DNA of 63,554 bases, counting the filler, from Hausera hauseri (Eukaryota), in the NCBI GenBank assembly GCA_046269625.1. It is 11 parts of 11 records of this genome, joined end to end, with 100 filler letters (N's around TTAATTAATTAA, not from the genome) between each part and the next. Parts side by side here need not be neighbours in the genome. Positions count along the whole stretch, not along the records: positions 16,896 to 28,268 come from JBJURY010106653.1; 10 more parts are not named here. One strand, given 5' to 3'. The notes beneath the pieces are model-generated. The model searched no databases. It saw only the letters and a program-made list of their open reading frames with translations, and was not told the DNA's origin. Position numbers and translations under genes: made by a program. Shown one piece after another: positions 7,777 to 49,800 of this stretch (positions within the stretch are counted from its first letter, which is position 1; every line of letters begins with the position of its first letter).

Positions 7777-8978
7777 TTATACAATGACGGTTCCGTTTTT
7801 CGTTATTTCAACCTCGGCATCAAATACACCGTAAATTTACATCACGGTAGATTGCTTCAACGTTCTAACAAAGTGAATCTCCAGTCCCAGGTTTCCCTGC
7901 TGAGGTAATTGAGTCTGTTCAACGTCATAATTCGGAGCTAGGACAAAGGTAAAGAACGGATAGATGGACTTGAATAAATCCATTGATATTCTGCTGTTGA
8001 CATTTTTGTTCAGCAAACCCATGTTGCGCACGATAGATTGCATATATGTGTAAACATAACCGCCAGCCTCGAACTCCTGCTTGTATGTCTCAACGAAATC
8101 CGCATTCTTGCCCAAAGTGACGTAATTTACATTTATATGGGTAAACGTTTTCGAATAGGTGATATAACTGGCCGTTTCTTGAGCAGTCATTTGAAATGTA
8201 ACGAGCACAAAATTCGACAATCGCATGTCGCCGAACAGTGCATCTTTGTAAAACGTAGTTGAACCTTTGGGTATGGTGTAAAAGACGAGTTCTGTGAGTT
8301 GTAATGGGTAATGGGCATTTTGTGTTTCCAAGCCCAATCAATGCCTCTTGAGAACAAATGGCTCTACCTTTACACGACGTACGTATAACCGTGCCTTGGT
8401 GATTTTCAGTATGACTTTGAGATTTGCAACTGAAGCTTTGAAACAAAAGATATTGTCGCTTCATTTGAGCCGAATCATGGCTTTAACACTAAGCATTAGG
8501 TATTTCGGCTGATCGAAAAAGTTAAAGTACAGCGATCCACCCATTGTAAGTACTTTTGATTCTGCCACCCATGCCGGACGGTCAAATGAGTCGTTTTCGT
8601 GCCTGTACTGTAATTCAGAGCCGTTTCAATGAGTGCTTTGATTTTGTATAGACTGGTGTTGCCTTCAATTTCGACGCTGTTTAAGTCCGTGAAGCCTCTT
8701 GGAATAGTGTGAGGACAAAGTAATTGGCCGGTGTAACAGTGTCTGTTGCAGCAAGAACCGTTGATGCCTCCTTTTTAACAATGCCTTTTTGCATACAGTA
8801 GCGTGCCATTCAAATCGAGGTATCCATTGTCCAATGCTATAATGTTAAATCGAGTGTCAAAATTATCGTCGGTTGAAACAAAATCAACGGGGTAGACTTC
8901 TAAAAATGTTACATTGTCAATAACAACTTGTCGGGCGACTTTGTCAAATATACACAATTAAGATTTTGCAGATGCCAT
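7777..8978 (-). pseudogene. Polinton/adintovirus major capsid protein (hexon-like double jelly roll), disrupted
   Basis: N-terminus MASAKS*LCIFDKVARQVVIDNVTFLEVYP...GYLDLNGTLLY and C-terminus GNLGLEIHFVRTLKQSTVM*IYGVFDAEVEITKNGTVIV match the adintovirus hexon pattern. About 400 codons, with stops and frameshifts. Confidence 0.85.
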
Positions 8979-10618: not shown

Positions 10619-12490
10619 GAGAGAGACGTAGATGTTTTAAATGTTTTACTGTCAGAACTATGGCGGGTAACTCACGGTCAAATGTTGAATAACGGCTTTC
10701 AGGTTGTTTAAGTTTCCTAGAGTAAAATTCTAGTGATTCATCAACGCCATTGTATATTTGGTGTAATATCGCACCAGTTGCTGTGGTCAAAGCATCGGTG
10801 GTAAGTATAAGATTTGCGTTGGGCTTTGGATAGGCCAGTATTTCGACAGAATTTAGGCCATCGTGTAAGTAGTCAAACTTAGTGACTAAATCAGGAATCC
10901 AGTACACCAACTGCTTTTCTTTTCGGATGATAAATGTGCAAAAGGTGCTGTCAGCTCAGAACAATGGGGTACGTATTTGTGGATGAAGTGGAGTGTGCCT
11001 AAGAAACTTCTGATGTCCGTGGTAGTCGTTGGTAGAGTTATGTTCTTCAATTGTTGTAGTCGATCCGATTGTGGATAGTGGCCGTGAGGAGTGATGACGT
11101 GACCCAGGAAATTAACACGTTTTTGAAAGAAATGACATTTGGAGAAGTTGACTTGCAAACTGCTATGATGTAGTCTGTGAAAGTTAATACGAAGGTGTTC
11201 TTGATGCTGTTTAACAGGTGAAGAGGCAACTATTATGTCATCAATGCATGGATGAGCAAAATCAATGCCTGAGAGTACGGTATCAATGTGCCGTTGGAAA
11301 GTTTGAGAAGCTCTACGTAAACCAAATGGCATAAAGATATATTCGTAGAGGCCAAATGGAGTAATAATAGCAGTTTTTGGAATATTATCAGGTGCAACAG
11401 GAATTTGATGATATGCTTTATGCAAGTCAGTTGTGGAGTACGTGTTAGTGTTGGTAAGGCTGTGCAGGATGTCATTTATGAGCGGTAAAGGATAAGCATC
11501 CATGACTGTTAAATTATTTAACTGCCGATAATCACCGCATGGTATGTATGTGCCATCTTTCTTCCTTACAACATGTAAAGGCGAAGCCCATGGTGATTTG
11601 GATCGTCAGATAATGCCTGCCTTTTCGAGTTCATTGAACTCTGATTCAACAGCTTTTCGTCTGCGAGGTAAAAGTGGCCTTACCTTTTGTCTGATAGGTC
11701 TTTGGTATTCGGTGACTATGTGGTGATGTGTTGTAGAATGCGGTTTGAAATTGATGTCCTTCTTAAGAGTACGGAACAAAAAGTTTTAATGTAGGATTTA
11801 AGGTCAGAACCCAACGATAAGAATGACGAGGGCATATTATTGAAAGAGTCAGTGGCTGTAATTGATGTAGAATGACTGAATAATTCATTAACTACATTCG
11901 GTTCAGCCGATTGTTTCAAGATTGATTTGTTCCCACTTGACGATATTGAAAATATTGATGAATTGTTAAGTATGTTGTTATCAGCCGATGAACAGGATGT
12001 CAAATTGACATTTGAATGATCAGAGGAAGACAAAATGTCCGACTGGTCGTTTGATGAACATTTATTAGAATTTGCAACGAAGTTTCTGCGCAGGAGGCAT
12101 TTATGCTTGCAGTCGACTAACAAATCATATGCAGCCAAGAAATCGGACGCTATTGTAGGAGATCTGATGTTGGCTATGTGAAATTTCCAGGAGAATTTCC
12201 CTGGTAGGTTGGAGAATGTGAAGATCAGTTTTGTGGTACCTACAATGTTCAAAGGTTGACCACAGACAGTGAAGAGTGGAGGTGAGAAAACTGTGTTAGA
12301 TGTAGGAGAAAAAGACAAAGGAAGAAGTGAAAAAGCAGCTCCTGAATCTATAAGAAAGTCTATTTGTGATGTGGCTCCAAATAACATTTCAGCTTTTAAC
12401 AGAAAGACTGCAGAGGCGGTGTTGAAACGGTCAGAAGATTGAACGATATTGCTTGCACCAGAATATTCCGTAAAATCTGGCCGCATTACT
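10619..12490 (-). pseudogene. Ty3/gypsy pol: aspartic protease, RT, RNase H (disrupted, truncated)
   Basis: DFLIDSGAAFSLLP (protease); SPWASPLHVVRKKDG, CGDYRQLN, DAYPLP, DLHKAYHQIPV, MPFGL, CIDDII (RT); LTTDA..YSRKL..RYSTFDREL (RNase H). Confidence 0.92.
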
Positions 12491-13527
12491 AGTTTTTGAA
12501 GGATTTGGAGAAAGGAAAGAAGAGGAAGAAAAAGGAGGAGATTTATTCTTGTAGTGTTTGCAACCAGACACACATGATCTGGTCTGTGATTAATACTTGT
12601 TGTAGTAGATGCAAATAGGGTTGCCCACAGCATATCGTTTGCTGTAGAATCGACAACCCAAGAGGCACTTCCTTGCATCCCTTCGAAATCGCGTGTGATA
12701 GAAGCACGGCATGCACCCGCGAGGTGAAGTGGATCGAGTAAAGTGTCTTGAAGTGCTTCGCTCCCTTGAAGGTCTGGTGTTACTTCATCGAGGCCTATTA
12801 AGATTGTTTAGTTGGAAAGTAATGGCCGAAATTGATTGTTGTAACAAGTTAATTTGTTGTTGCATCATTTGCAATTGTTGAACGAAAATTTTGGTGTCTA
12901 TATTTTGCGTTTGTCTGCAATCGCAATTTGGAGAGAATTATTTGCGTAAAGGATTTTGAAAGACTTATCAGCCATTATGGCCAATTTTTCAATAGAGGTA
13001 GACTTGTTGACAACGGTAAGCAAGGCTCCGATTTAGAAGGGCAAAGATGACAGAAAATAACGGCGAATTAAGTCCGCGTTATTTGTAGGTGTTACTACTA
13101 AAGCGCTAAGCTGCATAATGGCCGTTTGGAGAAAATCGGATGGCTTTTGGTTTCCTATCGCATGATCGTTAAAGTATTTTCCTACAATGTGATCTACCGA
13201 AGGTTCGGTGATATATAGTACAGCCTTACAGAGTGCTTCGTATTGTGTCAATGATTGAAGCAGTTCGGAGATATTAATGATCTGCTACTTGACGTTGGCA
13301 GGCAGAAGTATCAAGACTATTGGCCCGCAAAAAGGAGTCAATGATGTTGTTGGATTTTAGCCGCTGTTAGTATAATTGGATCCATGGTTTGCTGGAGTTG
13401 TTTTTATCAAGAAACAAATCCACACAAGATAGATTTAACGAAGCTCCTGTTTGTTGACAGTTTTGTACACGATAGATATTGTATATATTTGTGGATTTAT
13501 AATCAGAGAAAGATTGATTTGAGTGCG
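12490..13527 (-). pseudogene. Ty3/gypsy gag (disrupted)
   Basis: LNLSCVDLFLDKNNSSKPW..KYFNDHAIGNQKPSDFLQ..NNADLIRRYFLSSLP aligns by eye with the gag at 20684-21600. Cys/His-rich C-terminal motifs. Confidence 0.8.
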
Positions 13528-16895: not shown

Positions 16896-18150
16896 ATCAG
16901 ATTCAGTCAAGAATAGCAAAATTGAATAATATCAAAACCTATCGAAACATGTTTGATAATATTAATGATAAGATCGATAAATTTAAAAGACAAGATTACA
17001 TCTCTGCCACAATTAATTTAAGATGTGAATAATAAATCATGTTTGGTGGGTGATAATTTATACAGCATTAAAAGTTCTATTGCTGAAAAACAGGTTTTAC
17101 TGGACCGTGTTCAGAAATATAAAGATTATACTGGAGATTTTAATGATGTTGAATCTTGGATTTATGATAAATTGAAAATGGTTGGAACGAATGATTTTGG
17201 AGATGATACTGAAAAGAGCAAATATCAAAGATCGAAATATAATGATCAATTAGGAATTATAAAATGTGGTTAAGACAGTATTGATGAAATTAATCAAAAG
17301 GTAACGGAATTGTTACAAAGTCACAATCCAATTTCCGATGATGTACAAAAGGATAAATTAAACAAAGAATGGGCTCGATTATTGGATTTATCCGACGAGA
17401 AAATTCAAGATTTCGATCGAGTTGAAGAATTTCAAAAATTCAAAAATATGTGCGATGAAGTATCGGAATTGATGAATTTAAATAATATTTCTCTACCACC
17501 CACTGCTTGTAAGGATTCTACTGCTTTGCATTCTGTCGTTAAAAAATACGAGAATTTCGATAACGATTTGAAAACAATTCATAACAAAGTATTTAGAGCG
17601 AAAGAAGTCGGCCAAGAACTGATTAATAAATATCCTTTTGAATCCCAATAAATTCAGGAAGAAAATCATCGAATAATCGGTATGTGGTATGCATTACGAG
17701 AGTTTATAAACAGTAAATTGGCGGAATTAGAAGACACTGATCAATACTTGATTCGGTGTAATGAAATTCATCGTGTCAAAAAACTGTTCAATGACATTTA
17801 CGCTGAAATTAAAGCTGATCATCCTATTTTACTCTATTATTGCTGCCGGTGACCAATTGTCAAAGGCGAAAAATTATCGAAAGAAAATGGATGATAAGGA
17901 GGAATGTTTGCGAAAATTGGTGGCTTATAGTGAAGAACTGATTACTAGAAATACGTGTCAATTTGTTGACGAGATTCAATCAAGCATTGATAACGTTCTC
18001 ACTGAAAAGTCTCAACTCTGCGATAATTTGGACAATTGGATTGACAAATGTGAAGACATGCTAACTCAACAGAAAGTTTTAAAAGGTATCGATCAAATTA
18101 ATTCAAGCACCGTTTTACAAGAGGCAAAATTAAGCTGTTATTTAAAAATG
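16896..18150 (+). pseudogene. Spectrin-repeat gene fragments (intronless, with stops)
   Basis: FNDVESWIYDKL..DFGDD, KLNKEWARLLDLSDEK..EEFQKFKNMCDEVSELM, VVKKYENFDNDL: typical spectrin repeats. Confidence 0.8.
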
Positions 18151-18159
18151 ACCGATGAT

Positions 18160-19150
18160 AGAAACGAAGAGGTGATACAAGAAGTATTATCTGTAATGAT
18201 AAATTCCAATACCATGACAAGCGAAGAAATTTGTTTAATACTGGCTTCTAGGGATGATTTCCATATGAAAATCAGTAAACAGTATTTACGAGAATTTGGT
18301 TTCATAAATCAAGAAATTCTGAAAGCAATTAGACGTTTTATAGCGTACGTAAAATGTTCCGGTGAAAGTCAGGAACTTGAAAGGATCATTTATCATTTCA
18401 GTGAACGATATAATGAATGCAACAATAACATATCGGTCCAGACTTGTGAGAAAACTGCAATGACCCTTATTGGGGCGAATACCTACTGCACAACGATAAT
18501 GTATAACAGCGAGAAAAATGTGCCGAGTTCTTCAAATTTTTCGACAAGAAAACGATCCATTTCATGTATAAATCGCTAAAATAGGAGCCCTTTAATCTGA
18601 CGAAGGAAATGTTACAACAGGAAACAAAGAAAAGAGAGAGCAAATCAAATAAAGTTAATGTTGAAGACTCTAAACATTTTGACTCGGGATACATTAAGTT
18701 GAAGCTAGCTAAATCCTTTGAATCCTGGAAAGATTATTACATGTCTGTCGACAACTTAACGATGACTCTGTTCACTACACAAGATGCTGACGTATACTTG
18801 TCTAAGCCAAGACCACCCAATCAAGACAACGAAACATATAAAAAGAATTTTGTGAAAACCCATAAATTCATCAAACAGATATCCATTTATCATTCGGTTG
18901 CATTGACCATTTGGAAATACAAATATCATTTGAGGTTAACTTTAGAAGATTCAACGAAATTTCGTCCAACATTTTCTGCTGAAATTTCCAAGTTGACAAT
19001 CGAAGAGCAAATTGAACAACACAAAGCTCAGTATATTGAGTTTGACAAGATAAAAAAGTTTCTTCAATCTAAAGACAAAGGATCATGTAGTGATTTTAAA
19101 TATCTCAACAAACAGATTGAAAAATATGGGGTCTATAAACGTGTGATAAA
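18160..19150 (+). pseudogene. PSD/EFA6-like Sec7 plus PH/coiled-coil fragment
   Basis: Sec7: KQYLREFGF..ILKAIRRF..GESQELERIIYHFSERYNECN. PH: WKDYY..ISIYHSVA. KFRPTFSAEISKLTIEEQIEQHK resembles the PSD-family C-terminus. Confidence 0.75.
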
Positions 19151-19329
19151 AATCGATATGGATACACTGCATGAAAACAAATATCCACGTGAACTCAGAG
19201 AAAGTACAAGCTATTTATATTCATTGGAAAACAGTGGCAGTTATAACGGAAGCAACCCACAATTCAGTGATTTACTGGGTTTTCTACAAAACCATGCTAA
19301 TAATCTCCATCAAACGGAACTCTATTATC

Positions 19330-19945
19330 AACCGTTTTCGGATGTTGATTACGAAAATCTCACGATAGAATTTGAGAATTTGTGCAACATCTGTGATGAA
19401 AGAAAGACAACGCTGAGTGACAATTTGCAGTATTTGATATTTGACGGAGAATTGAAAGATACTGACATTCGCATCAGCACGAAATTGGCTTTTCTCAACA
19501 ACAATGTTCCAGGTTCCGACGAGCAGTCTTGTCAGAATCAGATAAGAAAAGTTGAAGATGCCAAACTTAACATTGACGCCGAAGGACCCTCGGTACAAAA
19601 TTTGAGACTGCATGCCGTTGAATTACCGACGAAATACCATGATATGGCGCTGAAATCGGTGAAAGACATCCAGTTAAAACTCGATTAGTCAATTGAACTG
19701 ATCAAATTGAAAGAGACTTCTGACGTCCCACCTTCTTTACTATCAGTTCATCAGAGAGACAGACGAATTACTTGGCTGGATAAGATACGAGAATACTCTA
19801 GAGATTGTAGATGATTATGGTAAAGATTAAGAGGACTGTCTGAACTTGCTTGAAAATTTTAATAAACAATATCAAATATTTTTAAGTAGCAGCAATAAAG
19901 TGACATCTATTAAAAACACAGCTAAACAACTTGTAGCCGATGTTG
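19330..19945 (+). pseudogene. Further spectrin-repeat fragments
   Basis: CDERKTTLSDNLQYLIFDGELKDTD..PGSDEQSCQNQIRK; YQFIRETDELLGWI; DDYGKD. Confidence 0.75.
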
Positions 19946-20469
19946 CTAAGTTACATTGGGTCACTTTGCCATCACCAAGTACGGATCGACTAAAGACCGA
20001 TTGCGATGTAATTAGTCAAACTGCTCAGGATATTGACTACCCGGTTATGCAAGTTTGGTCGTTGCATGCTATAGCTTTAACGGCAGATTTCGGAGTTTCA
20101 TCTTTTCTTTTACAATTTCCTCCATCGCAAACTGATATTCATGAATGCTTTGGTAAAGTTCTGAGTGCATTAATAAAAACTTTGGGATTTGAACTTCAAA
20201 GTAATTCTCTCACAATTATCAGTCTCAGAACGTCTTGGACAGCCAATCGTTTGATTTTGCAAGGACATCCTGATTCCCTAGTTCAAAGGTCGGTGAATTT
20301 GCTATATTCCTATTTCTTAACAATTCTTAAAATAACAACTAAAACAGTTAAATCACCGCATTCCGTATTTCTCAGCGTAGCTAATTCAGCCAAAAAGATT
20401 AGTTACTACAGAGCGGGGATTTTGGACGCGCCCGTGTTTTACGCATTGCGCTACACACCCGACATCTGA

Positions 20470-20683
20470 AAACTTCATTTTTTTAACTCTCGCTCGAAAA
20501 TAAACGCACGTACACATACTACATACATCAAACATCAATTATGGCACATTTGTTCGGGGCTCTACAACGAGATTCCGTCTTAGCTTTAATGGATTCTTTT
20601 TGCAGCAATACGATATTATCAACAGCTATACACGCTCATCTTTGAGACCTGTAATAACTACACATTACTGTTTGCTAGGCGGA
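20470..20683 (+). other. Ubiquitin-like domain ending LLGG, in frame with gag
   Basis: FRLSFNGFFLQQYDIINSYTRSSLRPVITTHYCLLGG|SDP resembles ubiquitin QRLIFAGKQL..TLSDY..TLHLVLRLRGG and SUMO IRFRFDG. The N-terminal half is in another frame. Confidence 0.65.
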
Positions 20684-21600
20684 TCTGACCCAAAAGCATC
20701 TTCTCAGGACAAACAAGATTTTGCTGACATTCCCATCATACATGTTCCGCTAAAGCAGTCGCCTTTAGTCCTACCTGCAGAATCCCCTTCGGTCAATTTC
20801 CCTTGTGTCGATTATTTTACAGATAAACAACACTCCAGTCGTACATGGCTGGAATTCCATGCGCAGTGGTTAAAATCGAATAAGATCACTGATCTTTTCT
20901 TCAAAGCCAATAGCCTATTAATACTTTTACCAGCCAACTTCAAGTCACTACTACCTAATCTTTCCGATATTTTTCAGACAGTAGACCCATACAAAACACT
21001 ATTCAACGCCATACTTAAACTCACCGAGCCTTCTCTGGATAACATTATCCAAAAATATTTCAATGAAAACACAATAGGCACACTAAAACCCTCTGAATTT
21101 TTACAAACATCCTTGACCCAATTAAGCAAGTTTGGAGTAAATCAAACCAACAATGCCGACTTATTGCGCAGATATTTCCTTCAATCATTACCGAAAAATA
21201 CGCGCTTTACTAACAGTAGTTGAAAATACCGCTAGGTTAGAAAAGTTAGCACAACTGGCTGATAAAAGTTACGATATACTAAATACACACCATATTCCTA
21301 TCGTCGCATCCACATTACAACCGCATATAACACCACCCAATGCTGAAATCTTAGCGCTGAATAATCATATAAACGCTTTCCGAGCTGAAAACACGGCAAT
21401 ACACCAAGCCATTTTTGCTCTAACTTTTAAAATGGGCAATTTATCCATGCCGCGACGAGATCGATTCAGACCTAATCACAGCCGCGCCTCATCGCAAAAT
21501 TCCAGATCCGCTAGGTCCCCTACTCGACTTATAGTGTGCTATTATCACAATAAATTCAAAAACCAATCCAGCAAATGTTGCTTGGGATGAAAATTCTATA
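20684..21600 (+). pseudogene. Ty3/gypsy gag (one frameshift near 21200)
   Basis: KPSEFLQ, LLRRYFLQSLP, LEKLAQLADK, C-terminal CYYHNKF...KC..G motif. Confidence 0.85.
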
Positions 21601-21959
21601 CACCAGCTGTAAGGTTTCATATTACAAAATATTAAAAGTTATATCTTTAAGAAAATTCAAAAGTTAAATCTCAAAATTTAACACAGACCTGTTCAGAAAA
21701 CAAAATTCAAAAATAAAATCACGAATTCATAACAAAATTTTTCAAATTCCTACAACACCACAAATTCAATCCAAATAAATTAAATACTAAAATTAAATCA
21801 TAAAATAAATCAGAATTACAAGTGCCAAAATAACCAGCACTTATAATAATAAAAATTAACAATCAAGATCTGTGGATTTAATCCATCTGTTTAAATCCAC
21901 AGACTAAAGATTGCACATTACTTTCCAAAAGATAAAAGAAAAAGCAAATAAACTCAAAC

Positions 21960-22531
21960 ATGTCAGCAGCACCAAAAACATTCAAACAGGTACAGATATC
22001 GACAGCCGCGAAACCAGACGAACCGATCGCCAAACATGGTTCAAAGGCCATCCCGGCCGATGCTACTACTCGAGCAAACGCCACGACAACATCATCGACT
22101 CCGGGGTATCGCATTCCAAAGATACCCCGACCGACACACGACGAACCAGGCAGTACCCCCGACCGCCGCGTCGCCTTACGGGAACAAAACCGATCGGAAG
22201 AACAACCACGCCCAATCCAGCGAGAAGCCGCCTCCCGCGGAAAACGCCGCCGCGACACAGACAAGCGAGTCCCGTACCGGTCCTACTCTGATTTTTTGAC
22301 GGTACGACAGCTCCTGCAAAGGAGCCACCTCGTACGACACTTGCTCGGGCTGGAGCGAGAGGATCCTTACTCTTTACCGGCAAGCAGGCTTTATCGGTTT
22401 TACCAGGACGGGGAAAACCGACGTCTCTTCGACTCGTCAGTTTTCCTGCCGGTATTCCTGAGACTGATGACGGCAACCGATTGCCTTTACGAATCCGTGG
22501 CCCCCTCGGAGAGCCGGTTAATTCCAACGCG
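21960..22531 (+). CDS. Orphan Pro/Arg-rich ORF with a long A-rich leader, interrupted by an LTR; probably ORF1 of another element
   Basis: 5' part of the 742 aa ORF. GC-rich, preceded by A-rich 21606-21959. Confidence 0.35.
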
Positions 22532-22863
22532 TGTAAGGACTTCTAGCCCTGAGATTCAGTCAAAGTCACGTCGCGCACGCCGATTGGATACGACATCCAG
22601 AAAGCAATCTCTTCCTGACTCGAGTTCGGATGACACTCCAATATGTGTACGTCGAAACCTCCGAGCCAACCAAGAGCTGTCCTCCACGGACGTATCATAC
22701 GCCTCGGTGGATTCAGTGGGTAATAAATTTGATGTGAATAAACGTTGTGACTCGTATGAGGTCATGTTATATCGTTTTTTCACGTTCATTTTTTGTTGCT
22801 GTTTTACGATTAAGATGTTTTTGCATAGAGTTAGAGACCCTAGAAAAGCAGAACCTCCTAGCA
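22532..22863 (+). repeat. Probable 5' LTR of the second gypsy element
   Basis: Starts TGTAAGG and ends CCTAGCA (imperfect inverted termini). Contains two AATAAA and is followed 3 nt later by PBS-like TGGTGGCAGC. Confidence 0.6.
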
Positions 22864-22865
22864 GA

Positions 22866-24188
22866 ATGGTGGCAGCAAATACGGCACACACGGCCCTTTC
22901 AAACAGAACCGTTCATATTGGTTCTGACATCTCGACAAACGCGGCCGTCGAAAATAATCCGGCTTCAAACACCCTCATCACTAAACGTGATGACACGCGA
23001 CCCGTCAACTACACGAACGATACCGAACAAATGCTAAACTATACTAGCACCAACATACACGATAACAATGCTAACTCGACTCACAAGTCCGGAAAAGCAA
23101 CAACCCCGAGAGAAATCCAATTTCTTGTGCGTGGCCTACACAACACGAGAGCACATCGCTTCTCGTCTAATATGTCCTTAAAGGCGATGCTACAACAGCT
23201 CGCGAGCTCATATCCGGACCACACTTTTTCACACAATGCAACACTGCTAGCCACTTCCAGATTAAAAGGAGGTGTTGACAACCTTACGCCTGACGTAAAA
23301 GCAGAAATTGCTTCAACAACACAGGCCAAACCACCCAATTTAGCATGCTCCACCTTCTTCATAGGTTCGGATGGAACGCCATTGAAGTGGTTTCATGTGT
23401 TTGAAACATGGGCTACTCAATGCAGCATCACTGGCCAACTAAACAAGGCCTTAACACTTATTCAGTACCTGCAGCTAACAACGCTTGCAGCCATAACGGA
23501 TCTGGACACGCTACTGTTAGATGAAAAACCGCTCGACAAGATGAAAGCAGCCATATGCAGAGCATATCTGCCATCCCAACAGGACCAGTTCAACTTGGTC
23601 TTCACCAAGCGACACACAGGGAATATGAAGCCGTCTGCTCTGCTTCACAAGTTACGCTCAAACTTGAGCAATGCTGAGTTAAACCTCCACACTAACCAGC
23701 ACATACTACAGTGCTACTTCCTAAGTAGTTTGCCCAATCAAATTCAAGCAGTATTGGTGCTATTACCGCCCGATACCACTTTCGACGATATGGCATCAAA
23801 AGCCGACAAAATATACGAGTGCACTAAAGGCACCGTAGAATCCGCACTGACGGAAAATACCCATTTCGTCACAACAACCCAGCAAAATCAGCTGGACACT
23901 ATCATTGCCGCATTGCAGGCACTTATAGCGCACAAGAATCCGCCAGCCAGAGACAAACCGTCATCTCAGCGCCAATCCCCCAAGAGAAAGAAAGGCAAAT
24001 TTTCCAACATTTGTTATTTCCACACACGATTTAGCGAATCCGCGTATAAATGTTACCATGGTTGTCAATTCGACAAGCCATCTGCAAACATAAAAATGCA
24101 AGACACTTGCATTTATCATGACCATTTCGGTCCAGATGCAAAAGTCTGTCGACCCGGCTGCAAATTTCACAAGCCATCAAAAAGCTAA
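22866..24188 (+). CDS. Intact Ty3/gypsy Gag with an N-terminal leader and ubiquitin-like domain (23115-23273, ends RLKGG)
   Basis: EIQFLVRGLHNT..SLKAMLQQLA..NATLLATSRLKGG|VDN, then gag motifs KWFHVFE, MKPSALLHKLR, FLSSLP, DDMASKADKI, and two C.(F/Y)H..F....C..GC.F repeats. Confidence 0.85.
   Translation: MVAANTAHTALSNRTVHIGSDISTNAAVENNPASNTLITKRDDTRPVNYTNDTEQMLNYTSTNIHDNNANSTHKSGKATTPREIQFLVRGLHNTRAHRFSSNMSLKAMLQQLASSYPDHTFSHNATLLATSRLKGGVDNLTPDVKAEIASTTQAKPPNLACSTFFIGSDGTPLKWFHVFETWATQCSITGQLNKALTLIQYLQLTTLAAITDLDTLLLDEKPLDKMKAAICRAYLPSQQDQFNLVFTKRHTGNMKPSALLHKLRSNLSNAELNLHTNQHILQCYFLSSLPNQIQAVLVLLPPDTTFDDMASKADKIYECTKGTVESALTENTHFVTTTQQNQLDTIIAALQALIAHKNPPARDKPSSQRQSPKRKKGKFSNICYFHTRFSESAYKCYHGCQFDKPSANIKMQDTCIYHDHFGPDAKVCRPGCKFHKPSKS
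22867..22876 (+). promoter_or_regulatory. Primer binding site-like motif TGGTGGCAGC
   Basis: Begins with TGG right after the LTR's CA end and overlaps the in-frame ATG at 22866. Confidence 0.5.
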
Positions 24189-24850
24189 ATGGGCCCAGAC
24201 GACCAACGGCACGTCGACTGGAAACCCAATCACCACAACTTCCGTATACAAATAGCAAACACATTGTCGACGCTATTTTCACCCTCGAGGCGGATCCACT
24301 ACACTCCAATATCTCGAAGCACCTAGATTTTTTAATCGACACTGGTGCAGCGTTATCGCTGATACCTAGCGCATACGCTAGACCTACGCTGGTCTCGCAT
24401 GCATTACTCAAAGCTGCCAATGGCACGCAAATGTCAACCACAGGTACACTGTACCTTTAATTTCACCTGCAAGGCCGACCATACGCTTGGTCATTCATGT
24501 TGGCCGATGTCATGCAATCAATCCTTGGTTCTGACTTCCTAGATCAGTACGATCTCACAGTTGATTGCCAAAATCAACAACTCACCAGAGGGAGCAATCC
24601 ACTACTTCCACCCGCATTCACACTAACTATAAACGCTGTCACGGATATCAAAATTACAAATCCCAGTGACATCGCTCTATTGCTGCAAGCGCAATACCCT
24701 AACCTGTTAAAACGCTCAGCACAACCAACACAGAAAGAGGTGAAAACATCGCACTTTCTCGTCACATCATGTGATCGACCGATTCGGCAACCCCGGAGGG
24801 AGCTTGACCCTGTCAAGAGAGCAGCTGCGGAAGCCGAATTTCGACACATT
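24175..24850 (+). pseudogene. Gypsy protease and start of pol (-1 frame relative to gag), interrupted before the RT core
   Basis: DFLIDTGAALSLIP, ILGSDFLDQYDLTVD, PIRQPRRELDP.KRAAAEAEF. One stop near 24458. Confidence 0.85.
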
Positions 24851-25302
24851 GAAGTGAGGGGCCAGAGGGTGGGGTCCAAAATGTCACACATTCTTTTTAG
24901 CCCCTCCTCGCATTCATTTATCCACTGGACCTGTTTGGGGGTGGTGAATTCATGCCAGGCCCCCACAAATTGGCCAAGGTCCTCACTCGTATAAGTAGCC
25001 CCGTCGTAAGGCAGAATCCAGACCCCCTGGAATTTTTCTATCTGGGCCAGGTAGGTCACAATTGAGTCCCTGACCCCCTCGCACCGGGCCAGGCTTTCTT
25101 GGGCCAGTCGAATTCGCTCCTGGGCCATTTCGTCCCCCCAGGCAGTCAAAATCGAGTCCCCCAGGATTTGGCGGAACTCATTTCCCAGGGTGGTCACACG
25201 TTCCAATTCGGCCCGGTAAATTTGTATATCTTGGGCCACCCTCTTTTCGGCCACGAGGTTGTACAATTCCAGCAATTTCAACGCGTAGGTTCTGTTTGCC
25301 AT
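24851..25302 (-). CDS. Orphan ORF of the CRESS-like insert (3' end runs into antisense gypsy sequence)
   Basis: MANRTYALKLLELYNL...DPTLWPLTS, ~150 codons, helical, divergent from rep. Confidence 0.55.
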
Positions 25303-25309
25303 CTATAAT

Positions 25310-25695
25310 TAGAAATAATTAAAAATATTAAGATTATTAATTAGTAATTAAGAAACTAAAAATATTAAGATTATTAATTAGTAATTAAGAAATTAAAAAT
25401 ATTAAGATTATTAATTATTAATTAAGAAATTAAAATTAAAATAATTAATATTAAAATAATTAATTTTAAAATAATTAATTTTAAAATAATTAATATTAAA
25501 AAAATTAATATTAAAAAAATTAATATTAAAATAATTAATATTAAAATAATTAATTTTAAAATAATTAATATTAAAATAATTAAGATAATTAAAAAGTAAT
25601 TAAAGTAATTAAATTAAATGAAAATAAATTAAGAGAAATAAGTAAAATATAATAATAATAATATTAATAATAATAATAATAATAAGAATAATAAG
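25310..25695. repeat. Extremely AT-rich tandem repeat block
   Basis: Three ~36 nt units (aaaatattaagattattaattagtaattaagaaa..), about nine 15-mers aataattaat(a/t)ttaa, then (aat)n. Confidence 0.9.
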
Positions 25696-26183
25696 TTTTG
25701 GGCTCGATTTTACTTTGAGCCAAATTATTTTTCAATATCGTGTACACTGGCCTATGTTAATTTACCGATGACCGATCGTATAGGGTCTCGGGTTTTCTTC
25801 ATGTAATGCAAAACACCGGTATCCAGATTTACATGTAAAGTCCGGTAACGTGGTCTAATTGCCAGCGGTCGCTTAATTGCCACTTGAGATTCACTGGCGC
25901 CGCTAATGTAATGAGTGAGCGTAAATATCGATCGATTGTGATTACACACAAACACGGTTGCTAAGCAACCTGTGTAGTGGATAGAAAATGTATTGCGCAC
26001 ACCTACTGGCTCAGTAGGTTTTTTTTCTGCCCCGGTTATTCTATATCTTCTAATTGAGCTAGCTCAAAAAGTAAATAAGAAGATAATCTGGCTAGAATTT
26101 AAATTTGATTCAAAATATATAAAGCCTAATTTTTTCAATATGGAAGCTTTCAATTTGGCTAAAATTATTAAATTGCCCCCCCT

Positions 26184-27495
26184 ATGATGAAGTCTGATGC
26201 GGAGTATATTTTTTTTATTTTTATTCGATTAATATTTTTTTTTCGACAGAACATCATACAAGAAGAATATAACGATAAGCAAAGAGAATGATATGCCTCT
26301 GTTTAAAAACACTGATTTCTCACCAGAAGTGTTTGAGGCTTTGCAAAGTAAATTTACAGAGCCTATCAAGGATTTGGCTATGCCCCCGCGTAATTATACG
26401 TTTCGCCACTGGATGCTGGTGCACAAGTTGGACGAAATGCAGAATGCGGAATATTATTTGGACACGTACCAGCGTTTGTATTTGAAGAAACGTTGGTACA
26501 TCCGTCTGCAAGAAGAAAGGGCACCGTCGGGGTTTCATCATATTCATATATTGATCTATACCCCGACGCCTAATAAGATCAGTACGATGTGGAATATTTT
26601 GGTTTCACATGTTTTGCCTTTTCGTGCTGATATTCAGAAAGTAATGAATTTAATTATTAATATTATTATTGTTATTTAGGTTTATCAGTATCATCATAAA
26701 GATACGTTTGACGGGGCGCTCATTGCGGCTTTCGGGAAGGAGCCGTTTAATGTTTGGCGTGAGAATACGTCAAAAAAAGTGATATATAAATTGTTCGATG
26801 AGGCCCCTACGCCTGAAGAAGCTTTGCAGACCATGAAGGAGTGCGATAGGTCGGAGTATATTACTCGCCATCGCTTATTAACTACGTATATTCGTAACAA
26901 GTTCCGAGAGAAATATGTTCCGCAGGAAAATCAAGAATTTTTGCTTCCTCCTATCCATTTTGATGTTGAGAAAGGTGTCAATTCCGCAGTTATTTTTGGC
27001 AGTGCCAATATAGGGAAAACTTCCTATGCATTGTCGCATGGGAAGAATCCCCTTATTCTCCATTCTATCCATGATTGCCCCACGGATTGGACTGGGGAAT
27101 ACGATATTATAATATTGGATGATGTTGGATTTCACGATACGGCTCCCGACCAATTTTTGAATATGATACAATGCAACCATGCGAACGATAATCGGTCGTT
27201 TAGGGGATTATATAAATCGGTAATGATCCCAAGCAAGGTGCCTTTGATAATGACCTATAATAATGAGCAGACATTTTGGCCTTACAAGATGGACTTGGTA
27301 CAGAAGGAGGCCTGTCTCAAAAGGTTGAAAGTGTACAATTGCGGTACAACGATGTTGTATAATGGCAAGGATGTCAGGAACAAGTTTTTGAAGGATAATG
27401 TTGTTAATGTGGAGGAAGAAATTCAAGCCAAGAGGATCAAGTTGAACATTCGTTTGAATCCCGTGACTCAGGCCTGGGAGGCGGCTGGCCAATGA
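26184..27495 (+). CDS. rep: HUH endonuclease-SF3 helicase Rep (CRESS type), spliced: exons 26184-26203, 26250-26640, 26680-27495
   Basis: Motif I-like HWMLVH, motif II EERAPSGFHHIHILI, motif III YQYHHKD, Walker A GSANIGKTS, Walker B IIILDD, motif C IMTYN, Arg finger LKRL. Removing two GT-AG introns (46 and 39 nt) gives one frame. TATA-like tatataaag at ~26116. Confidence 0.88.
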
Positions 27496-27573
27496 CATAC
27501 GTGCACGTGTGTTACTATAAATAGATTGTAATTTGTTTTAATATATCTTTAGTTGTTTAGTTTATTGTTTCTC

Positions 27574-28116
27574 ATGGATGAATTGTGTACTATTTTAAAT
27601 CAGTTGTATTTCCGAACGATTTCTTTGAATCGTTTTTGCTATAATGTTGCGCATCAAGTACCCACGGATAACTGGGAGGAATACCTTAATATTGTTCATG
27701 CTAACAATTTTGCCCAGGATGTTATGAATTTGTCTTATAATGCCATTCAAGCTTATGATAAAATTCTACAGCAGTTTCCAATTATTGAACCTCTATCTAG
27801 TCAGTGCAAATTTAATGAAATTCTTAGGGGAGATGCCGATATTGCTCTTGTTGCAGCCTGTGCTCAGGATATTTGTTCTGAATCTCATTTGACTAAGATG
27901 TCTTTGGATCCTAATGAAGTTAGTATGGCTAAAAAGAATCCGTGTTTTATCTGTTGTAAGCCCGACTCAAGTATACCTCATATTTTAAAGCGATTCAATC
28001 AAAATAAAATCCAGAGTTTCTCGGACCTTACGTCCTCACATCGGAAAGTGAGTAAAATTGAAAAAAATGAAATTTTTGATTTTTTGAAATTTTTGACCCC
28101 ACGGTTGCAAAACTGA
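27574..28116 (+). CDS. Orphan ORF downstream of rep
   Basis: 180 aa open frame from ATG 27574, TATAAA at ~27516, Cys cluster PCFICCK. Confidence 0.6.
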   Translation: MDELCTILNQLYFRTISLNRFCYNVAHQVPTDNWEEYLNIVHANNFAQDVMNLSYNAIQAYDKILQQFPIIEPLSSQCKFNEILRGDADIALVAACAQDICSESHLTKMSLDPNEVSMAKKNPCFICCKPDSSIPHILKRFNQNKIQSFSDLTSSHRKVSKIEKNEIFDFLKFLTPRLQN

Positions 28117-28131
28117 TCCAATGAAGCTTCA

Positions 28132-28268
28132 TTGCTGGACGCGCAATACCCTAACCTGTTGAAACACGCAGCACAACCAACACAGAAAGAGGTGAAAACA
28201 TCACACTTTCTCGTCACATCATGTGATCGACCGATTCGGCAACCCCGGAGGGAGCTTGATCCTGTCAA
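28132..28268 (+). repeat. Direct duplicate of gypsy pol segment 24679-24816
   Basis: ttgctg..gcgcaataccctaacctgtt..cagaaagaggtgaaaacatc..gggagcttga.cctgtcaa, with roughly 7-8 mismatches. Runs to the contig end. Confidence 0.95.
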
Positions 28269-36263: not shown

Positions 36264-36758
36264 TCAAATAGAATAATGTCCATAGGCGACACTTTTGTTT
36301 TTCGATATCCAGTGTCGTTTGTCATCGAATGGATCTAGTGCTTTCTTTTTTGTACTGATCGTCATCAGTTGATGGTTCTTGGTACCAATCCGTTCTTGAT
36401 AAACAATTGTCCCACATCCATTCTCATATGCTTGCAAGTAGTTGTCAAAGTGCAAATTCGTTTGCTTCAGATTGATGCCCTTGCATTTGAGCACTGGTTT
36501 GGATTGGGTTTTGAGGGCATATGATTTCGGCCGTAGGAAAATGGCTTCTTGATACTGAACGCTGCCCTTGCTCTCGTCTTTAAATTTGCCAATAACAGAA
36601 GCGAAACGAGTCGAGTACAGTGGATCACTTTTATCATAGTTAGACGTATCTAACTGCTCGTTTGCTATCATTGATGGTAACAGTTGGGATTGTAAGTCCA
36701 CACCACGGCATTCAATGAAGAAACTGTCAGTGTCACCAGCAACAATATTTAACTCGCA
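36264..36758 (-). CDS. Protein-primed family B DNA polymerase, C-terminal part (Polinton/adintovirus)
   Basis: IVAGDTDSFF, LDTSNY, IGKFKDE, FLRPKSYA, KCKGI, ALDPFDDKRH, AYGHY. Confidence 0.92.
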   Translation of the reverse strand, partial: CELNIVAGDTDSFFIECRGVDLQSQLLPSMIANEQLDTSNYDKSDPLYSTRFASVIGKFKDESKGSVQYQEAIFLRPKSYALKTQSKPVLKCKGINLKQTNLHFDNYLQAYENGCGTIVYQERIGTKNHQLMTISTKKKALDPFDDKRHWISKNKSVAYGHYSI

Positions 36759-36879
36759 NNNNNNNNNNNNNNNNNNNNNNNNNNNNNNNNNNNNNNNNNN
36801 NNTTAATTAATTAANNNNNNNNNNNNNNNNNNNNNNNNNNNNNNNNNNNNNNNNNNNNTTATATGGGGACTGCCAAGAA

Positions 36880-46899: not shown

Positions 46900-49800
46900 A
46901 AGAAAAACCAGTATCCCTCAACAATCAGGAAACGTCAGGCCTCAACAAGTCTTGACGACTTAATCCGAAACAGTACCGAACAGCAGCAACAGCAGGAGCA
47001 GATGCAACAGCAGGAATGTTCCATTACTGTTAAGTGCGATCTAAACAAACCGTACGTGGACGTGAAAGTAAGCATGTCGAGGACAACAACAGTACAGCTG
47101 AGGCATGTTCCGTCCAGTGTGTGCAGCCGGTTGGATTTAGAGGTGGAGAAATTCAAACTCAAAAACTGCAAAGTGCAATAGTATGCACTTGCAGAATATA
47201 AAAACTTTGAAGGTGGCAGGAAACAATGGTACCTGCCACATTGAGCTGTACCGTATTCGGAAGATTTTATTGCCGATGTAGGCGAAAAGTTGGATGAGAA
47301 AATTGCCAACTATACCGAAAGGGTAGTGGATGGTAAATTATACGAATTGTCACACTCGGCTTTATCATAACAAAGTCGAGTGACGTGGTATATTTGTCTG
47401 GACGATCATTCACACCGACACCTGCATCTCTAAAGCAGTCTCTGGCGGTAGTGAATATACAAAATACTGACGATGACGACGAATACTGTTTTCTGTACAT
47501 TATTCTGGCTGTATTGAAATAAAGCGAAGTGAGGAGATATCACGGAAATCATCTAAATCAGAACCGGCAGTATTATTCCGAATTGCAATATGATGAATTC
47601 TGGATGTCGATGAAACTAAAAACCATTCGGGCTTTTGAACGGCGTAATCCGACGCTGTCAATCAACGTTTTCCGGTATAATACAATAGTTGAAATACCAG
47701 AAGACGAAGAAATTTATAAGAACCCCCATGTGGACATAATTTATTGTAGTCGGAACCCGAATGGACGCTCGGTAAATTTGTTGCTGTTGGAGCAGGCCGA
47801 AAAATTTCATTACGTGGCAGTGACAAATCTGGATAGACCGTTGAACATGGATCATGACCAGTTCATCAAAAAGCGAATACGATGCAAATGGTGTCTTGTA
47901 TGTCTGCATGGATTCAGATTGGGAACAACGTGGGAGAAGTATGTCACGCTATAAAGGTAAAACGTATCAGGGACAAGAATGTACGTCATGCCCGTCAAAA
48001 AGGCGCTCAGATTCAGTTATTGGTCTAAAACTGACAGTGCGGCATATGTGGTTTATGCCAATATGGAAGCAATTCTACCACAGTACACTGTATACGATCA
48101 AATGCATGTTCTAATTGCCGTCAGTATGTTGCTAGTACCAATAAAAGCCGCCGCACAACCACTCTATTACGTTTTCCATTGTTGGAACTGTGTTTGTGAT
48201 TTCTAGCAGCAGTTGGAAACCATAGTGGAAAAGGAAATCGCGCCTTGGTATAGCAACAATTGCAATAAGCCATTGATTTACACAAACGAATATCAACCGT
48301 TGCCTTTCGCTGTCATCGATGAATGCTATGCATGCCACAAAATAATACCGTTTGATGCACAGGAACGGCTTGTACCGTATCACGACCATTTCACCGGTCG
48401 ATACTTGGGAGCAGCATGCAATTCATGCAATTTAGCAAGCCGAGTGCGACCATTTCTGCCGGTGCTCCTTCATAATTTCCAAGGTTGACTGTCACAATAT
48501 TCTCAAATGGGCCATTAACGGCTTTCCGCACTGGAACTGTCCATAATCCCAACGACAATGGAGAAATACCTATTGCTGTCGGTACGAGTAAACCGATTCC
48601 AGGTACGCTTCCTTGATTCACTGCAACTTCTCAGTGAATCATTGGCAAAGCAGGTAAAGGCTTCTGCAGATGTGCCAATAGCAGAGACGCAGTTCCTTGC
48701 ACACATTTCACGCAGCAAAAGCATATTTCCATATGAATTTTCAACATCATATGAGCTTCTCCGGACAGCACAAGAATTATCGCCGTGATGGACAGGTATG
48801 GCAGAAGATGAATATCGAAGAGCACAAGAATATTGGACAAAACTGGGCTGTAGAAACATGTTGGATTACATGCTCCAGTATCTTAAACTGGACGTGCACT
48901 TATTAACCGATGTGTTCGAAGCATTTCGGACCAAAGTGCTGGCGGAAGATAGGTTGGAGCTACTCAACTTTTACTCCATACCGGGCGTCAGCTCTAATTT
49001 CACTGGATCGAGACATTGACAGCTGCAAGACTCAGAAACGTACCGAATGTTGATGTTGGTATTCGCGGCGACACGACATTTGTCAACAATAATCAGGTCA
49101 GTGCTACCGATATTATATCACTGCTGTATATTGATATTAATAATCTGTTAGGCGGGGCGCTTTCGCAACCCTTGCCGTGCGATTCATTTGAATGGGTAGT
49201 TGACAATTAAGATCTGAATGACATAATGGTCAACCTACCATGAACAAACATGGCTGGCTCAATCGGATACCTGATGTAGGTCGATCTCGAGATACCAGAT
49301 GAGATGCATAATATTTTGGACCATTTACCGGTCGCCCCATTTAACCAATGCCCGCCAGGCTCAAAAGTGAAGAAACTGCCCATGACGCATGAACCGAAGC
49401 TGAATTACGTGCTCCACTGGCGTCTGCTACAGTTCTACATGCAGCTCGGTGTACGCGTCACACAGCTGCATCGTGCAATCCGATTTGCTCAGGTTCCTAT
49501 ATTGAAGGCGTATATAGATGGAAATTCGGATAAACGAGCCGCAGCTTTTACAAAGTTCGAAAAGGACTACTACAAGCTGAAAAACAATTCCATGTACTGA
49601 AAAACAGTGGAGAATCTAAAAAAGCGGCTGAATGTGCGCCTATGTAACTCCGAAAAGTAGCTGGTTACATATACCAGCAAGGCACAGTTTCGGTGGTCAA
49701 TGCACATTGTTGATGGATTGGTTGCGGTGCTGCTAAACATGTAATAAGTCCTTCTGGACCGGAAAAGTTACATCGGACAAGTGGTATTGGATCTGAGAAA

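What the first reader, a model, noticed from the sequence alone, without database searches (positions are those of the whole stretch)
24679..28268. CRESS-DNA-virus-like element embedded in a gypsy pol and bracketed by a long direct duplication
Seen: a ~3.3 kb insert with an apparently intact Rep interrupts pol at ~24850. Gypsy sequence restarts about 170 bp earlier at 28132, in a copy with roughly 7-8 mismatches over 137 bp. That is far longer than any target-site duplication. Inference: capture by recombination or template switching between two related gypsy copies, or Rep-mediated integration, so a retrotransposon may be carrying ssDNA virus genes. The intact Rep beside diverged flanks suggests recent capture or selection.
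Basis: partly seen in the sequence, partly recalled or inferred. Interest (0 to 1): 0.75.

Follow-up and report, generated by a model that had tools for sequence, protein, structure and literature searches.

The report
Virus replication gene between gypsy copies
A 3.2-kb virus-like stretch with a distant circular-ssDNA-virus replication gene (likely split by a short intron) sits between two differing copies of a host jumping gene, likely as patch DNA from a chromosome-break repair rather than as the jumping gene's cargo, which would make it a fresh example of a known kind of viral fossil.

Summary
The sequence is as described, but the 'duplication' is misread. A 3.27-kb insert cuts a gypsy pol at 24854, and gypsy sequence restarts about 176-181 bp earlier (131/138 identical). 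The window is 11 linker-joined contigs and this one ends at 28268, so the repeat's true length is unknown. The two gypsy pieces look like separate members of a high-copy family, not a target-site duplication. The insert is composite: 3.19 kb of virus-like DNA plus 85-88 bp from inside a very high-copy host repeat. The viral part encodes a CRESS-type HUH+SF3 Rep with all motifs, at most 35% identical to any listed protein, and likely interrupted by a 39-nt intron. Two flanking ORFs run out of the viral part and have no relatives. There is no capsid gene and no canonical origin. Near-identical Rep DNA lies in three sequencing studies, each also holding the host repeats. Best reading (0.5): recent integration of a viral fragment during break repair templated from a sister gypsy. 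Transport by the gypsy is unlikely: copy A is dead and the intron is unspliced. No listed contig bridges either gypsy junction. An 18-nt subterminal inverted repeat keeps a Rep-transposon reading open (about 0.1).

The parts
16896..28268 (.). The contig that holds the finding (one of 11 joined by artificial linkers)
21936..24188 (+). Open frame ending in a gag-like region of gypsy copy A (weak DUF7041 match, E 0.052, below cut-off)
   Evidence: high summed depth in runs
24122..24854 (+). pol remnant of gypsy copy A (protease, linker, first RT residues). It has an in-frame stop at 24458-24460 not shared by about 99% of family depth and is cut at 24854.
   Evidence: table 3
24674..24816 (+). Segment of copy A that recurs in copy B; it would reach 24854 if copy B stays colinear beyond the contig end
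24855..28039 (.). Virus-like part of the insert (3,185 nt)
24869..24886 (-). 18-nt motif, inverted copy (16/18) of 28085-28102, 14 nt inside the left junction
24855..25302 (-). ORF divergent from Rep, about 150 aa inside the insert, with no stop of its own (runs on into gypsy antisense to 24574); 54% GC; no relatives found
25303..25692 (.). A+T block (5% GC) of 15-nt and 37-nt tandem repeats
25697..25724 (+). Weak stem-loop with a non-canonical nonamer-like loop between the divergent genes; candidate origin only
26204..26249 (+). Second candidate short A+T-rich intron (46 nt, GT..AG) upstream of the Rep frame; untested
26293..27495 (+). CRESS-type Rep: HUH endonuclease (H83/H85, Y133xxK) and SF3 helicase (Walker A G236-T243, Walker B D276/D277, N323, R344); numbering of the X read-through P0001
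26641..26679 (+). Likely 39-nt intron (GT..AG, 90% A+T) holding the in-frame TAG
27574..28116 (+). ORF3, 180 aa, predicted helical at low confidence; its last 25 codons and stop come from the host repeat; no confirmed relatives
28040..28127 (.). Inner fragment of a very high-copy host repeat that continues on both sides elsewhere in the genome
   Evidence: tables 2 and 7
28119..28134 (.). 16-nt palindrome straddling the repeat/gypsy-B joint; absent from the continuation shown for the repeat family
28126..28268 (+). Gypsy copy B, cut off by the contig end (start uncertain, 28126-28141)

Best explanation
A 3.19-kb piece of an unclassified CRESS-type (circular ssDNA virus-like) replicon lies between two differing copies of a high-copy gypsy family and likely got there recently as filler in the repair of a DNA break in the dead copy A. 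Steps: (1, shown) copy A is cut at 24854, the viral piece follows, then 85-88 nt of a host repeat, then gypsy copy B restarting about 180 nt upstream. (2, inferred) One broken end was joined to viral DNA. (3, inferred) The other end copied about 180 nt from a non-allelic sister gypsy, which gives an instantly 5%-diverged 'duplication'. It then picked up the host-repeat piece and annealed to the viral DNA over a 3-nt overlap at 28040-28042; the palindrome at the repeat/gypsy joint would be a snap-back scar of end joining. (4, inferred) Longer forms of the replicon, episomal or integrated elsewhere, persist in the same host. The Rep would be a working nickase-helicase after splicing (predicted), but nothing shows that it made this insertion or that the gypsy moves it.
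For: Rep identity: 247 proteins at E<=0.001, best 3.9e-17; all catalytic motifs kept; top fold matches are CRESS Reps. Intron: the two pieces, scored apart, sit on adjacent profile columns (first piece ends near 99-100, the Tyr of the second at 103). The His-Tyr spacing is 37 without the stretch and 50 with it, against 37-46 (10th-90th percentile) in 105 of 150 homologs. Two gypsy members: most laid family contigs in X1 are under 99% alike (14,656 of 17,315). Copy B has the family-majority letter at 3 of the 4 listed sites in the overlap where A departs. Youth: X1 contigs match the insert with 0 differences over 412, 1,444 and 403 nt; X2 with 1 difference and 1 gap in 589 nt and 1 in 233 nt; X3 with 0 in 229 nt. 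All three runs also hold the gypsy and the host repeat. Fragment: both flanking ORFs run out of the viral part without their own stop. An X1 contig ends exactly at 28042, the virus/repeat joint, which implies two continuations there (rough chance 0.005; inference from k=31 contig logic). X1 depth is about 35 on the insert against 5-8 on 16896-18415 (ratio 5.4).
Against: No listed contig bridges the left junction or the repeat/gypsy-B junction. X1 may be the source sample, so its identity is not independent; only X2 and X3 are, and they cover Rep pieces only. The tool warns that summed depth is no copy number, and host DNA at 19176-19935 also reads 31-33. Copy B shares A's minority letter at 1 of the 4 sites. 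The alternative continuation at 28043 was not shown. The repair path needs three joints. The 16/18 subterminal inverted repeat (0 of 1000 shuffles of the left 100 nt; 5 of 100 for the whole viral part) is not required by this model. The host is unidentified and no genome is held.
Confidence: 0.5

Rival explanations
1. A circular, capsid-less Rep replicon of about 3.45 kb had already captured the host-repeat piece and about 180 nt of gypsy, like geminivirus-host hybrid minicircles. It integrated by one crossover into gypsy copy A, or is amplified as a tandem array or episome.
For: A single crossover gives exactly a long, imperfect direct repeat in the same orientation and register (offset 3,452 nt). 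X1 depth is flat and raised across the insert. Virus-host hybrid minicircles replicate in plants (PMC6293997, abstract seen).
Against: The X1 contig break exactly at the virus/repeat joint implies another continuation. No canonical nonamer origin was found. No go-back joint is among the 15 of 30 joints shown, though a circle closed through the gypsy piece need not show one.
Confidence: 0.17
2. Library or assembly chimera: an abundant viral sequence was joined to host repeats by chimeric reads or graph simplification.
For: The window is a bin of short contigs. The contig stops 141 nt past one candidate joint and 128 nt past another, near the largest k of common assemblers (141 and 127, recalled). 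The insert is deeper than the left flank and no bridging contig is listed.
Against: The joints share only 2-5 nt, too little for a k-mer join. A chimera gives no reason for both flanks to be the same gypsy in register within 180 nt. The X1 break at 28042 implies that the window's own continuation is one of the branches (inference). Rep DNA occurs with the host repeats in two further studies.
Confidence: 0.15
3. The insert is a rolling-circle transposon driven by a CRESS-derived Rep, with Helentron-like ends (subterminal inverted repeat plus 3' palindrome). The very high-copy host repeat would be its non-autonomous partner.
For: 16/18 inverted repeat near both ends, a palindrome 16 nt after the right copy and central tandem repeats resemble HINE/DINE-1 anatomy (PMC4067079, passages). 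Short host-type introns, no capsid, raised depth, near-identity across studies.
Against: The left motif is 14 nt from the junction (2-4 nt in HINEs). There is no T-run at the ends. The host repeat continues with a conserved sequence past the right junction and does not show the palindrome there (table 7). Both flanking ORFs are cut at the ends. Such transposition makes no 180-nt duplication. No second insertion site was seen.
Confidence: 0.1
4. One reading: capture by template switching between gypsy RNAs, so that a retrotransposon carries and spreads the viral genes.
For: Two gypsy members in register flank the insert. Retroelement-driven copying was proposed for circoviral inserts in carnivores, there with non-LTR elements (10.1101/207399, passages).
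Against: Copy A is dead (stop in the protease region, RT cut). The sense-strand Rep intron is unspliced. The insert has divergent genes and intergenic DNA, unlike an mRNA copy. A third repeat is present. None of 54 loci with related Reps has gypsy gag or pol nearby.
Confidence: 0.05

Closest known systems
Endogenous CRESS-DNA viral elements in eukaryote genomes (Liu et al. 2011, PMC3198968; passages seen)
   Same: Rep-only inserts, some inside host genes or transposons, in some invertebrates up to about sixty copies
   Different: Here the Rep is of an unplaced lineage, likely intron-bearing, with two orphan ORFs, and is flanked by two different copies of one gypsy in register plus a third repeat
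Circoviral elements amplified within non-LTR retrotransposons in carnivores (Dennis et al., 10.1101/207399; passages seen)
   Same: Rep sequence flanked by retroelement DNA; retroelement-driven copying proposed
   Different: Here the host element is a dead LTR gypsy, the Rep is not circoviral, looks young, and keeps its intron
Unclassified CRESS viruses such as Periparus ater CRESS-DNA-virus sp. (QTE03536.1)
   Same: HUH+SF3 Rep with the same motif set; best sequence and fold match
   Different: 31% identity over the matched stretch only, long branch; many relatives on small contigs show a NANTATTAC match (18 of 22) and Arg-rich capsid-like ORFs by eye, which the insert lacks
Geminivirus-host hybrid minicircles (PMC6293997; abstract seen)
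   Same: Rep-dependent circles that join viral and host DNA; model for the first rival
   Different: Those are non-coding, helper-dependent and episomal in plants; this one is Rep-coding and seen only as a linear contig
Helentron/HINE/DINE-1 elements (PMC4067079) and Replitrons (PMC10288648); passages seen
   Same: HUH enzyme; subterminal inverted repeat and 3' palindrome resemble Helentron ends
   Different: Helitron-type enzymes are Y2 Rep with an SF1B helicase and Replitrons lack a helicase; this protein is Y1 Rep with SF3, the viral layout

Membership tests
CRESS-DNA virus (Cressdnaviricota) | Rep with Y1 HUH endonuclease motifs I-III | tested here: met
   H83/H85 and Y133xxK aligned with 36 homologs; N-terminal piece hits a homolog profile at E 4e-9; mixed beta/alpha N-terminal domain in the model
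CRESS-DNA virus (Cressdnaviricota) | Fused SF3 helicase (Walker A, B, motif C, Arg finger) | tested here: met
   G236, G241, K242, T243, N323 and R344 invariant, D276 and D277 nearly so; fold matches to CRESS Reps, AAV Rep and PCV2 ATPase
CRESS-DNA virus (Cressdnaviricota) | Jelly-roll capsid gene | tested here: not met
   No match for either flanking ORF; ORF3 model all-helical but low confidence. A capsid may lie outside the captured piece.
CRESS-DNA virus (Cressdnaviricota) | Stem-loop origin with NANTATTAC-type nonamer | tested here: inconclusive
   Only a weak hairpin with a 5-of-9 match at 25697-25724
CRESS-DNA virus (Cressdnaviricota) | Circular single-stranded genome | not testable with these tools
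   Only contigs available
Any named CRESS family or CRESSV1-6 group | Rep falls in the family clade | tested here: inconclusive
   Quick tree of 79 rows without named references: end branch 2.17, no small supported clade. Geminivirus-like central domain in 10 of 37 alignment members.
Endogenous viral element | Covalently joined to host DNA in the germ line | tested here: inconclusive
   Joined in the contig; near-identical Rep with host repeats in 3 studies; no bridging contig listed
Gypsy element carrying a captured gene | Intact or mobilisable gypsy with both LTRs around the cargo | tested here: inconclusive
   No LTR pair found in the contig, which ends at 28268; copy A has a stop and a cut RT
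Gypsy element carrying a captured gene | Signs of passage through RNA (sense introns lost) | tested here: not met
   The 39-nt intron is present in the window and in X1 and X2 contigs that cover it
Helitron/Helentron | Y2 Rep fused to an SF1B helicase | tested here: not met
   One Tyr motif and an SF3 helicase (definition)
Helitron/Helentron | subTIRs 2-4 nt from the 5' end and 38-60 nt from the 3' end, 3' palindrome, insertion in TT or T-rich sites | tested here: inconclusive
   18-nt inverted repeat and palindrome present, but the left copy is 14 nt from the junction and there are no terminal T-runs
Replitron | Y1 Rep without helicase; short terminal direct repeats | tested here: not met
   Helicase present; best direct 18-nt match between the ends has 7 mismatches

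The most novel reading that the evidence does not exclude
A CRESS-virus Rep with its SF3 helicase has become the engine of a new kind of animal rolling-circle transposon or integrating replicon: capsid-less, with host-type mini-introns and Helentron-like ends, present in a few near-identical copies, and mobilising the host's very high-copy repeat as its non-autonomous partner.
Probability: 0.1. Interest if true: 0.8.

Novelty: new member of a known kind. Interest (0 to 1): 0.37.

Why it matters
On the best reading it adds one deep, host-linked CRESS lineage with short introns. It also shows how break repair can fake a long 'target duplication' out of two transposon copies, a useful caution for genome scans. 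Host assignment is rare for such Reps, so a confirmed junction would tie a lineage of unnamed Reps to an animal-type host. If the transposon reading held, it would be a further independent recruitment of an HUH enzyme into transposition, straight from a virus and with its helicase kept, which Liu et al. 2011 suggested as a possibility (passage seen).

Tried and rejected
No whole genome is held, so copies could not be counted directly. Pfam, PHROGs and PDB sequence searches gave no significant match for the Rep. The word-indexed search gave 0 of 986 candidates. The Atlas gave no result for the Rep. For the minus ORF there was no usable Atlas hit; for ORF3 only unnamed clusters at 0.95 with low recognition and 161-164 shared features, a lead only. 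Locus scans with both ORFs and with the gypsy pol found no relatives in viral contigs. The ORF3 model was too poor to use (pLDDT 48; 0 matches at E<=0.001). The host-repeat motif had 0 exact matches in viral and metagenome contigs. Host identification through the Sec7 ORF failed (0 of 135 candidates), and the gypsy relative has no name. An alternative genetic code for the TAG was considered and rejected: the neighbouring host gene is broken by all three stop codons and by frameshifts, and the intron fits the profile. Rfam: one sub-threshold hit outside the insert. No RNA holder was listed, which is no evidence either way. A target-site duplication was rejected on length and divergence. An old duplication of copy A was judged less likely because the insert shows almost no divergence across runs. 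The careful tree did not finish; the quick tree is used. Earlier scan notes held no look-alike. Literature searches listed no paper on a CRESS Rep between two gypsy copies or on a CRESS-SF3 animal transposon; the library is partial, and no supplements were opened (those of PMC11463337 might place the best named hit in a group).
Full report
SETTING. The window is not one sequence. It is 11 contigs joined by 100-nt N-TTAATTAATTAA-N linkers, and no genome is held. The finding lies at the right end of contig 16896-28268. Left of it are a broken spectrin/Sec7/PH-like gene, a gag-like remnant and gypsy copy A. The host looks like an animal by these domains, but it was not identified.

OBSERVATION. 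24679-24816 recurs at 28131-28268 with 131 of 138 identical; from 24674/28126 it is 143 nt with 9 differences. An intact pol from an unnamed contig (P0160) is 82% identical over 117 aa and continues into RT where the window departs, which puts the left joint at about 24854. Copy B therefore restarts about 176-181 nt upstream. It is cut by the contig end, 141 nt after one candidate joint (28127) and 128 nt after another (28140). These lengths are near the largest k of common assemblers (recalled), so the seen length of the 'duplication' is likely an assembly limit.

THE TWO GYPSY PIECES. In run X1 the family is very deep, and 14,656 of 17,315 laid contigs are under 99% alike to the window (this count covers the whole contig, host repeat included). 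A 5% difference is thus ordinary between members. Of the 4 listed sites in the overlap where copy A departs from the majority, copy B has the majority letter at 3 and A's letter at 1 (only 40 of 873 variant rows were shown). Copy A has an in-frame stop at 24458-24460 that about 99% of the family depth lacks. I read A as a dead copy and B as a separate member. An old duplication with later drift cannot be excluded from these sites alone, but it fits poorly with the near-zero divergence of the insert.

THE INSERT. 24855-28039 is virus-like. 28040-28124/28127 is an inner piece of a host repeat with by far the highest depth, whose loose ends show conserved continuations on both sides in all three runs. 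The main frame (26293-27495) has one in-frame TAG. Pfam, PHROGs, PDB sequences and the word-indexed search found nothing significant. The full HMMER scan with the second piece found 247 proteins at E<=0.001, 28 at 1e-10 and none at 1e-30, with listed identities of 23-35%. I aligned 36 of the 150 listed: HUH, YxxK, Walker A/B, motif C and the Arg finger are all kept. 16 of 37 rows match Viral_Rep and 10 Gemini_AL1_M. The best hit's cluster holds a named Periparus ater CRESS-DNA-virus Rep; none of the other 19 clusters looked up has a name. The model (pLDDT 78) matches CRESS Reps first, then parvovirus, redondovirus and PCV2 replication proteins. A quick helicase-side tree of 79 of 137 candidate rows, without named references, leaves the Rep on a long branch (2.17) with no small supported clade.

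THE INTRON. 26641-26679 is a 39-nt GT..AG stretch, 90% A+T, ending in the TAG. Against a profile of 134 of the 150 homologs (query left out), the two pieces scored apart fall on adjacent columns. The His-Tyr spacing is 37 without the stretch and 50 with it, against a median of 39 and a 10-90% range of 37-46 in the 105 homologs where the pattern was found. Splicing is inferred; no RNA run was listed. A second candidate intron lies at 26204-26249. The flanking ORFs (minus strand 25302-24855; plus strand from 27574) both leave the viral part without a stop and have no confirmed relatives. Neither looks like a capsid. No canonical nonamer hairpin was found, whereas 18 of 22 related IMG/VR loci hold a NANTATTAC match. 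None of 54 loci with related Reps has the gypsy or the orphan ORFs nearby.

IS IT REAL? Three runs of three studies hold the stretch (shares 0.85, 0.22, 0.07), and all three were laid. X1, possibly the source, matches the insert with 0 differences over 412, 1,444 and 403 nt at depth 29-32. X2 has 589 nt (1 difference, 1 gap) and 233 nt (1 difference); X3 has 229 nt (0 differences). All hold the gypsy and the host repeat. X1 depth on the insert is 5.4 times that of 16896-18415 by bins, and 8-9 times by the closest contig. But summed depth is no copy number, and host DNA at 19176-19935 also reads 31-33. No listed contig bridges a gypsy joint (24 pieces shown of about 18,500). One X1 contig ends exactly at 28042, where the 3-nt overlap of virus and repeat ends. 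By contig logic that means two continuations there, one presumably the window's (rough chance 0.005). This is indirect support for that joint and for a longer form of the replicon in the same sample.

MECHANISM. Chance does not explain two flanks from one gypsy family, in register within 180 nt. Two routes do. (a) Break repair in copy A, with one end extended on a sister copy, a host-repeat piece picked up, and annealing to viral DNA over short overlaps; the palindrome at 28119-28134 would be a snap-back scar (mechanism names from my own knowledge). (b) One crossover of a circle that already held the repeat and the gypsy piece. The branch at 28042 favours (a): 0.5 against 0.17. A chimera gets 0.15. 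Carriage by the gypsy gets 0.05: copy A is dead and a sense-strand intron would likely be lost in an RNA passage. One feature is unexplained: an 18-nt inverted repeat (16/18) at 24869-24886 and 28085-28102. It is the only other match in the window at up to 3 mismatches and was reached by 0 of 1000 shuffles of the left 100 nt and 5 of 100 shuffles of the viral part; it was found after looking, so the test is post hoc. With the palindrome and the central tandem repeats it recalls Helentron/HINE ends. But spacing, T-runs and the repeat's continuation do not fit, so the Rep-transposon reading gets 0.1.

KNOWN WORK. Liu et al. 2011 (PMC3198968, passages) report Rep inserts in host genes and transposons, up to about sixty copies in two arthropods, and a geminivirus-like transposon in truffle. 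Dennis et al. (10.1101/207399, passages) propose retroelement-driven copying of circoviral inserts. Catoni et al. (PMC6293997, abstract) show virus-host minicircles. Replitron and Helentron definitions are from passages. Passages of PMC6668415, PMC8780604, PMC6186406 and PMC11463337 gave no way to assign a family. PMC10193959 was seen as a listing only. No supplements were opened. Ten searches listed no report of this arrangement. One earlier scan note (e1-7632710) describes a CRESS Rep inside a LINE in another genome; I did not check it.

VERDICT. It works like an endogenous CRESS fragment. It carries a true CRESS-type Rep of an unplaced lineage, but it is not shown to be a complete virus, a member of a named family, a Helitron, a Replitron or gypsy cargo. 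New member of a known kind; interest 0.37.

Noticed in passing
window 1-63554: The window is 11 contigs of 4-11 kb joined by N44-TTAATTAATTAA-N44 linkers. It holds animal-type genes and transposons (armadillo-repeat exon, Bel/Pao, LINE RT, DDE_Tnp_1_7 transposase), so it looks like a mixed bin.
   Followed up: partly
window 16896-20469: A spectrin-repeat/Sec7/PH-like gene with an unusual domain order, broken by stops and frameshifts; X1 holds diverged copies of it.
   Followed up: partly
window 20504-21590: A second gag-like remnant (by eye) directly upstream of gypsy copy A, also high in summed depth.
   Followed up: no
window 10629-13236 (-): A related gypsy on another contig, 59% identical in pol to P0160, next to another broken host gene; it may come from the same host.
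   Followed up: partly
window 26390-27176 in runs X1, X2: Signs of a second, diverged Rep: an X1 contig at depth 42 matching both sides of 26462-26563, and an X2 contig with 28 differences over 26975-27176.
   Followed up: no
window 28040-28127: The host repeat has by far the highest summed depth in all three runs (1.8 million in X1's bin) yet no exact match of its motif in IMG/VR or JGI contigs; its family is unidentified.
   Followed up: partly
L026:9605-11976 and L041:9827-10648 (one 58-kb contig): A large gene-dense contig with three ORFs of this Rep family that group together in the tree; by recall this resembles Rep capture by large DNA viruses such as avipoxviruses.
   Followed up: no
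L033:2635-5304; L045:961-3393; L054:3354-4559: Related Reps in other odd settings: a partial tandem duplicate, a Rep in two pieces about 1.5 kb apart, and a Rep beside a helicase-like ORF.
   Followed up: no
window 36264-36806, 47523-47954, 61225-62837, 7837-8337: ORFs that by recall resemble Polinton/adintovirus polymerase B and capsid pieces; Pfam gave no match for the four sent.
   Followed up: no
window 27528-27552 and 25303-25305 (-): A further 25-nt GT..AG A+T-rich stretch before ORF3, and an AG directly before the minus ORF's ATG at the edge of the A+T block, which may be an expanded intron.
   Followed up: no
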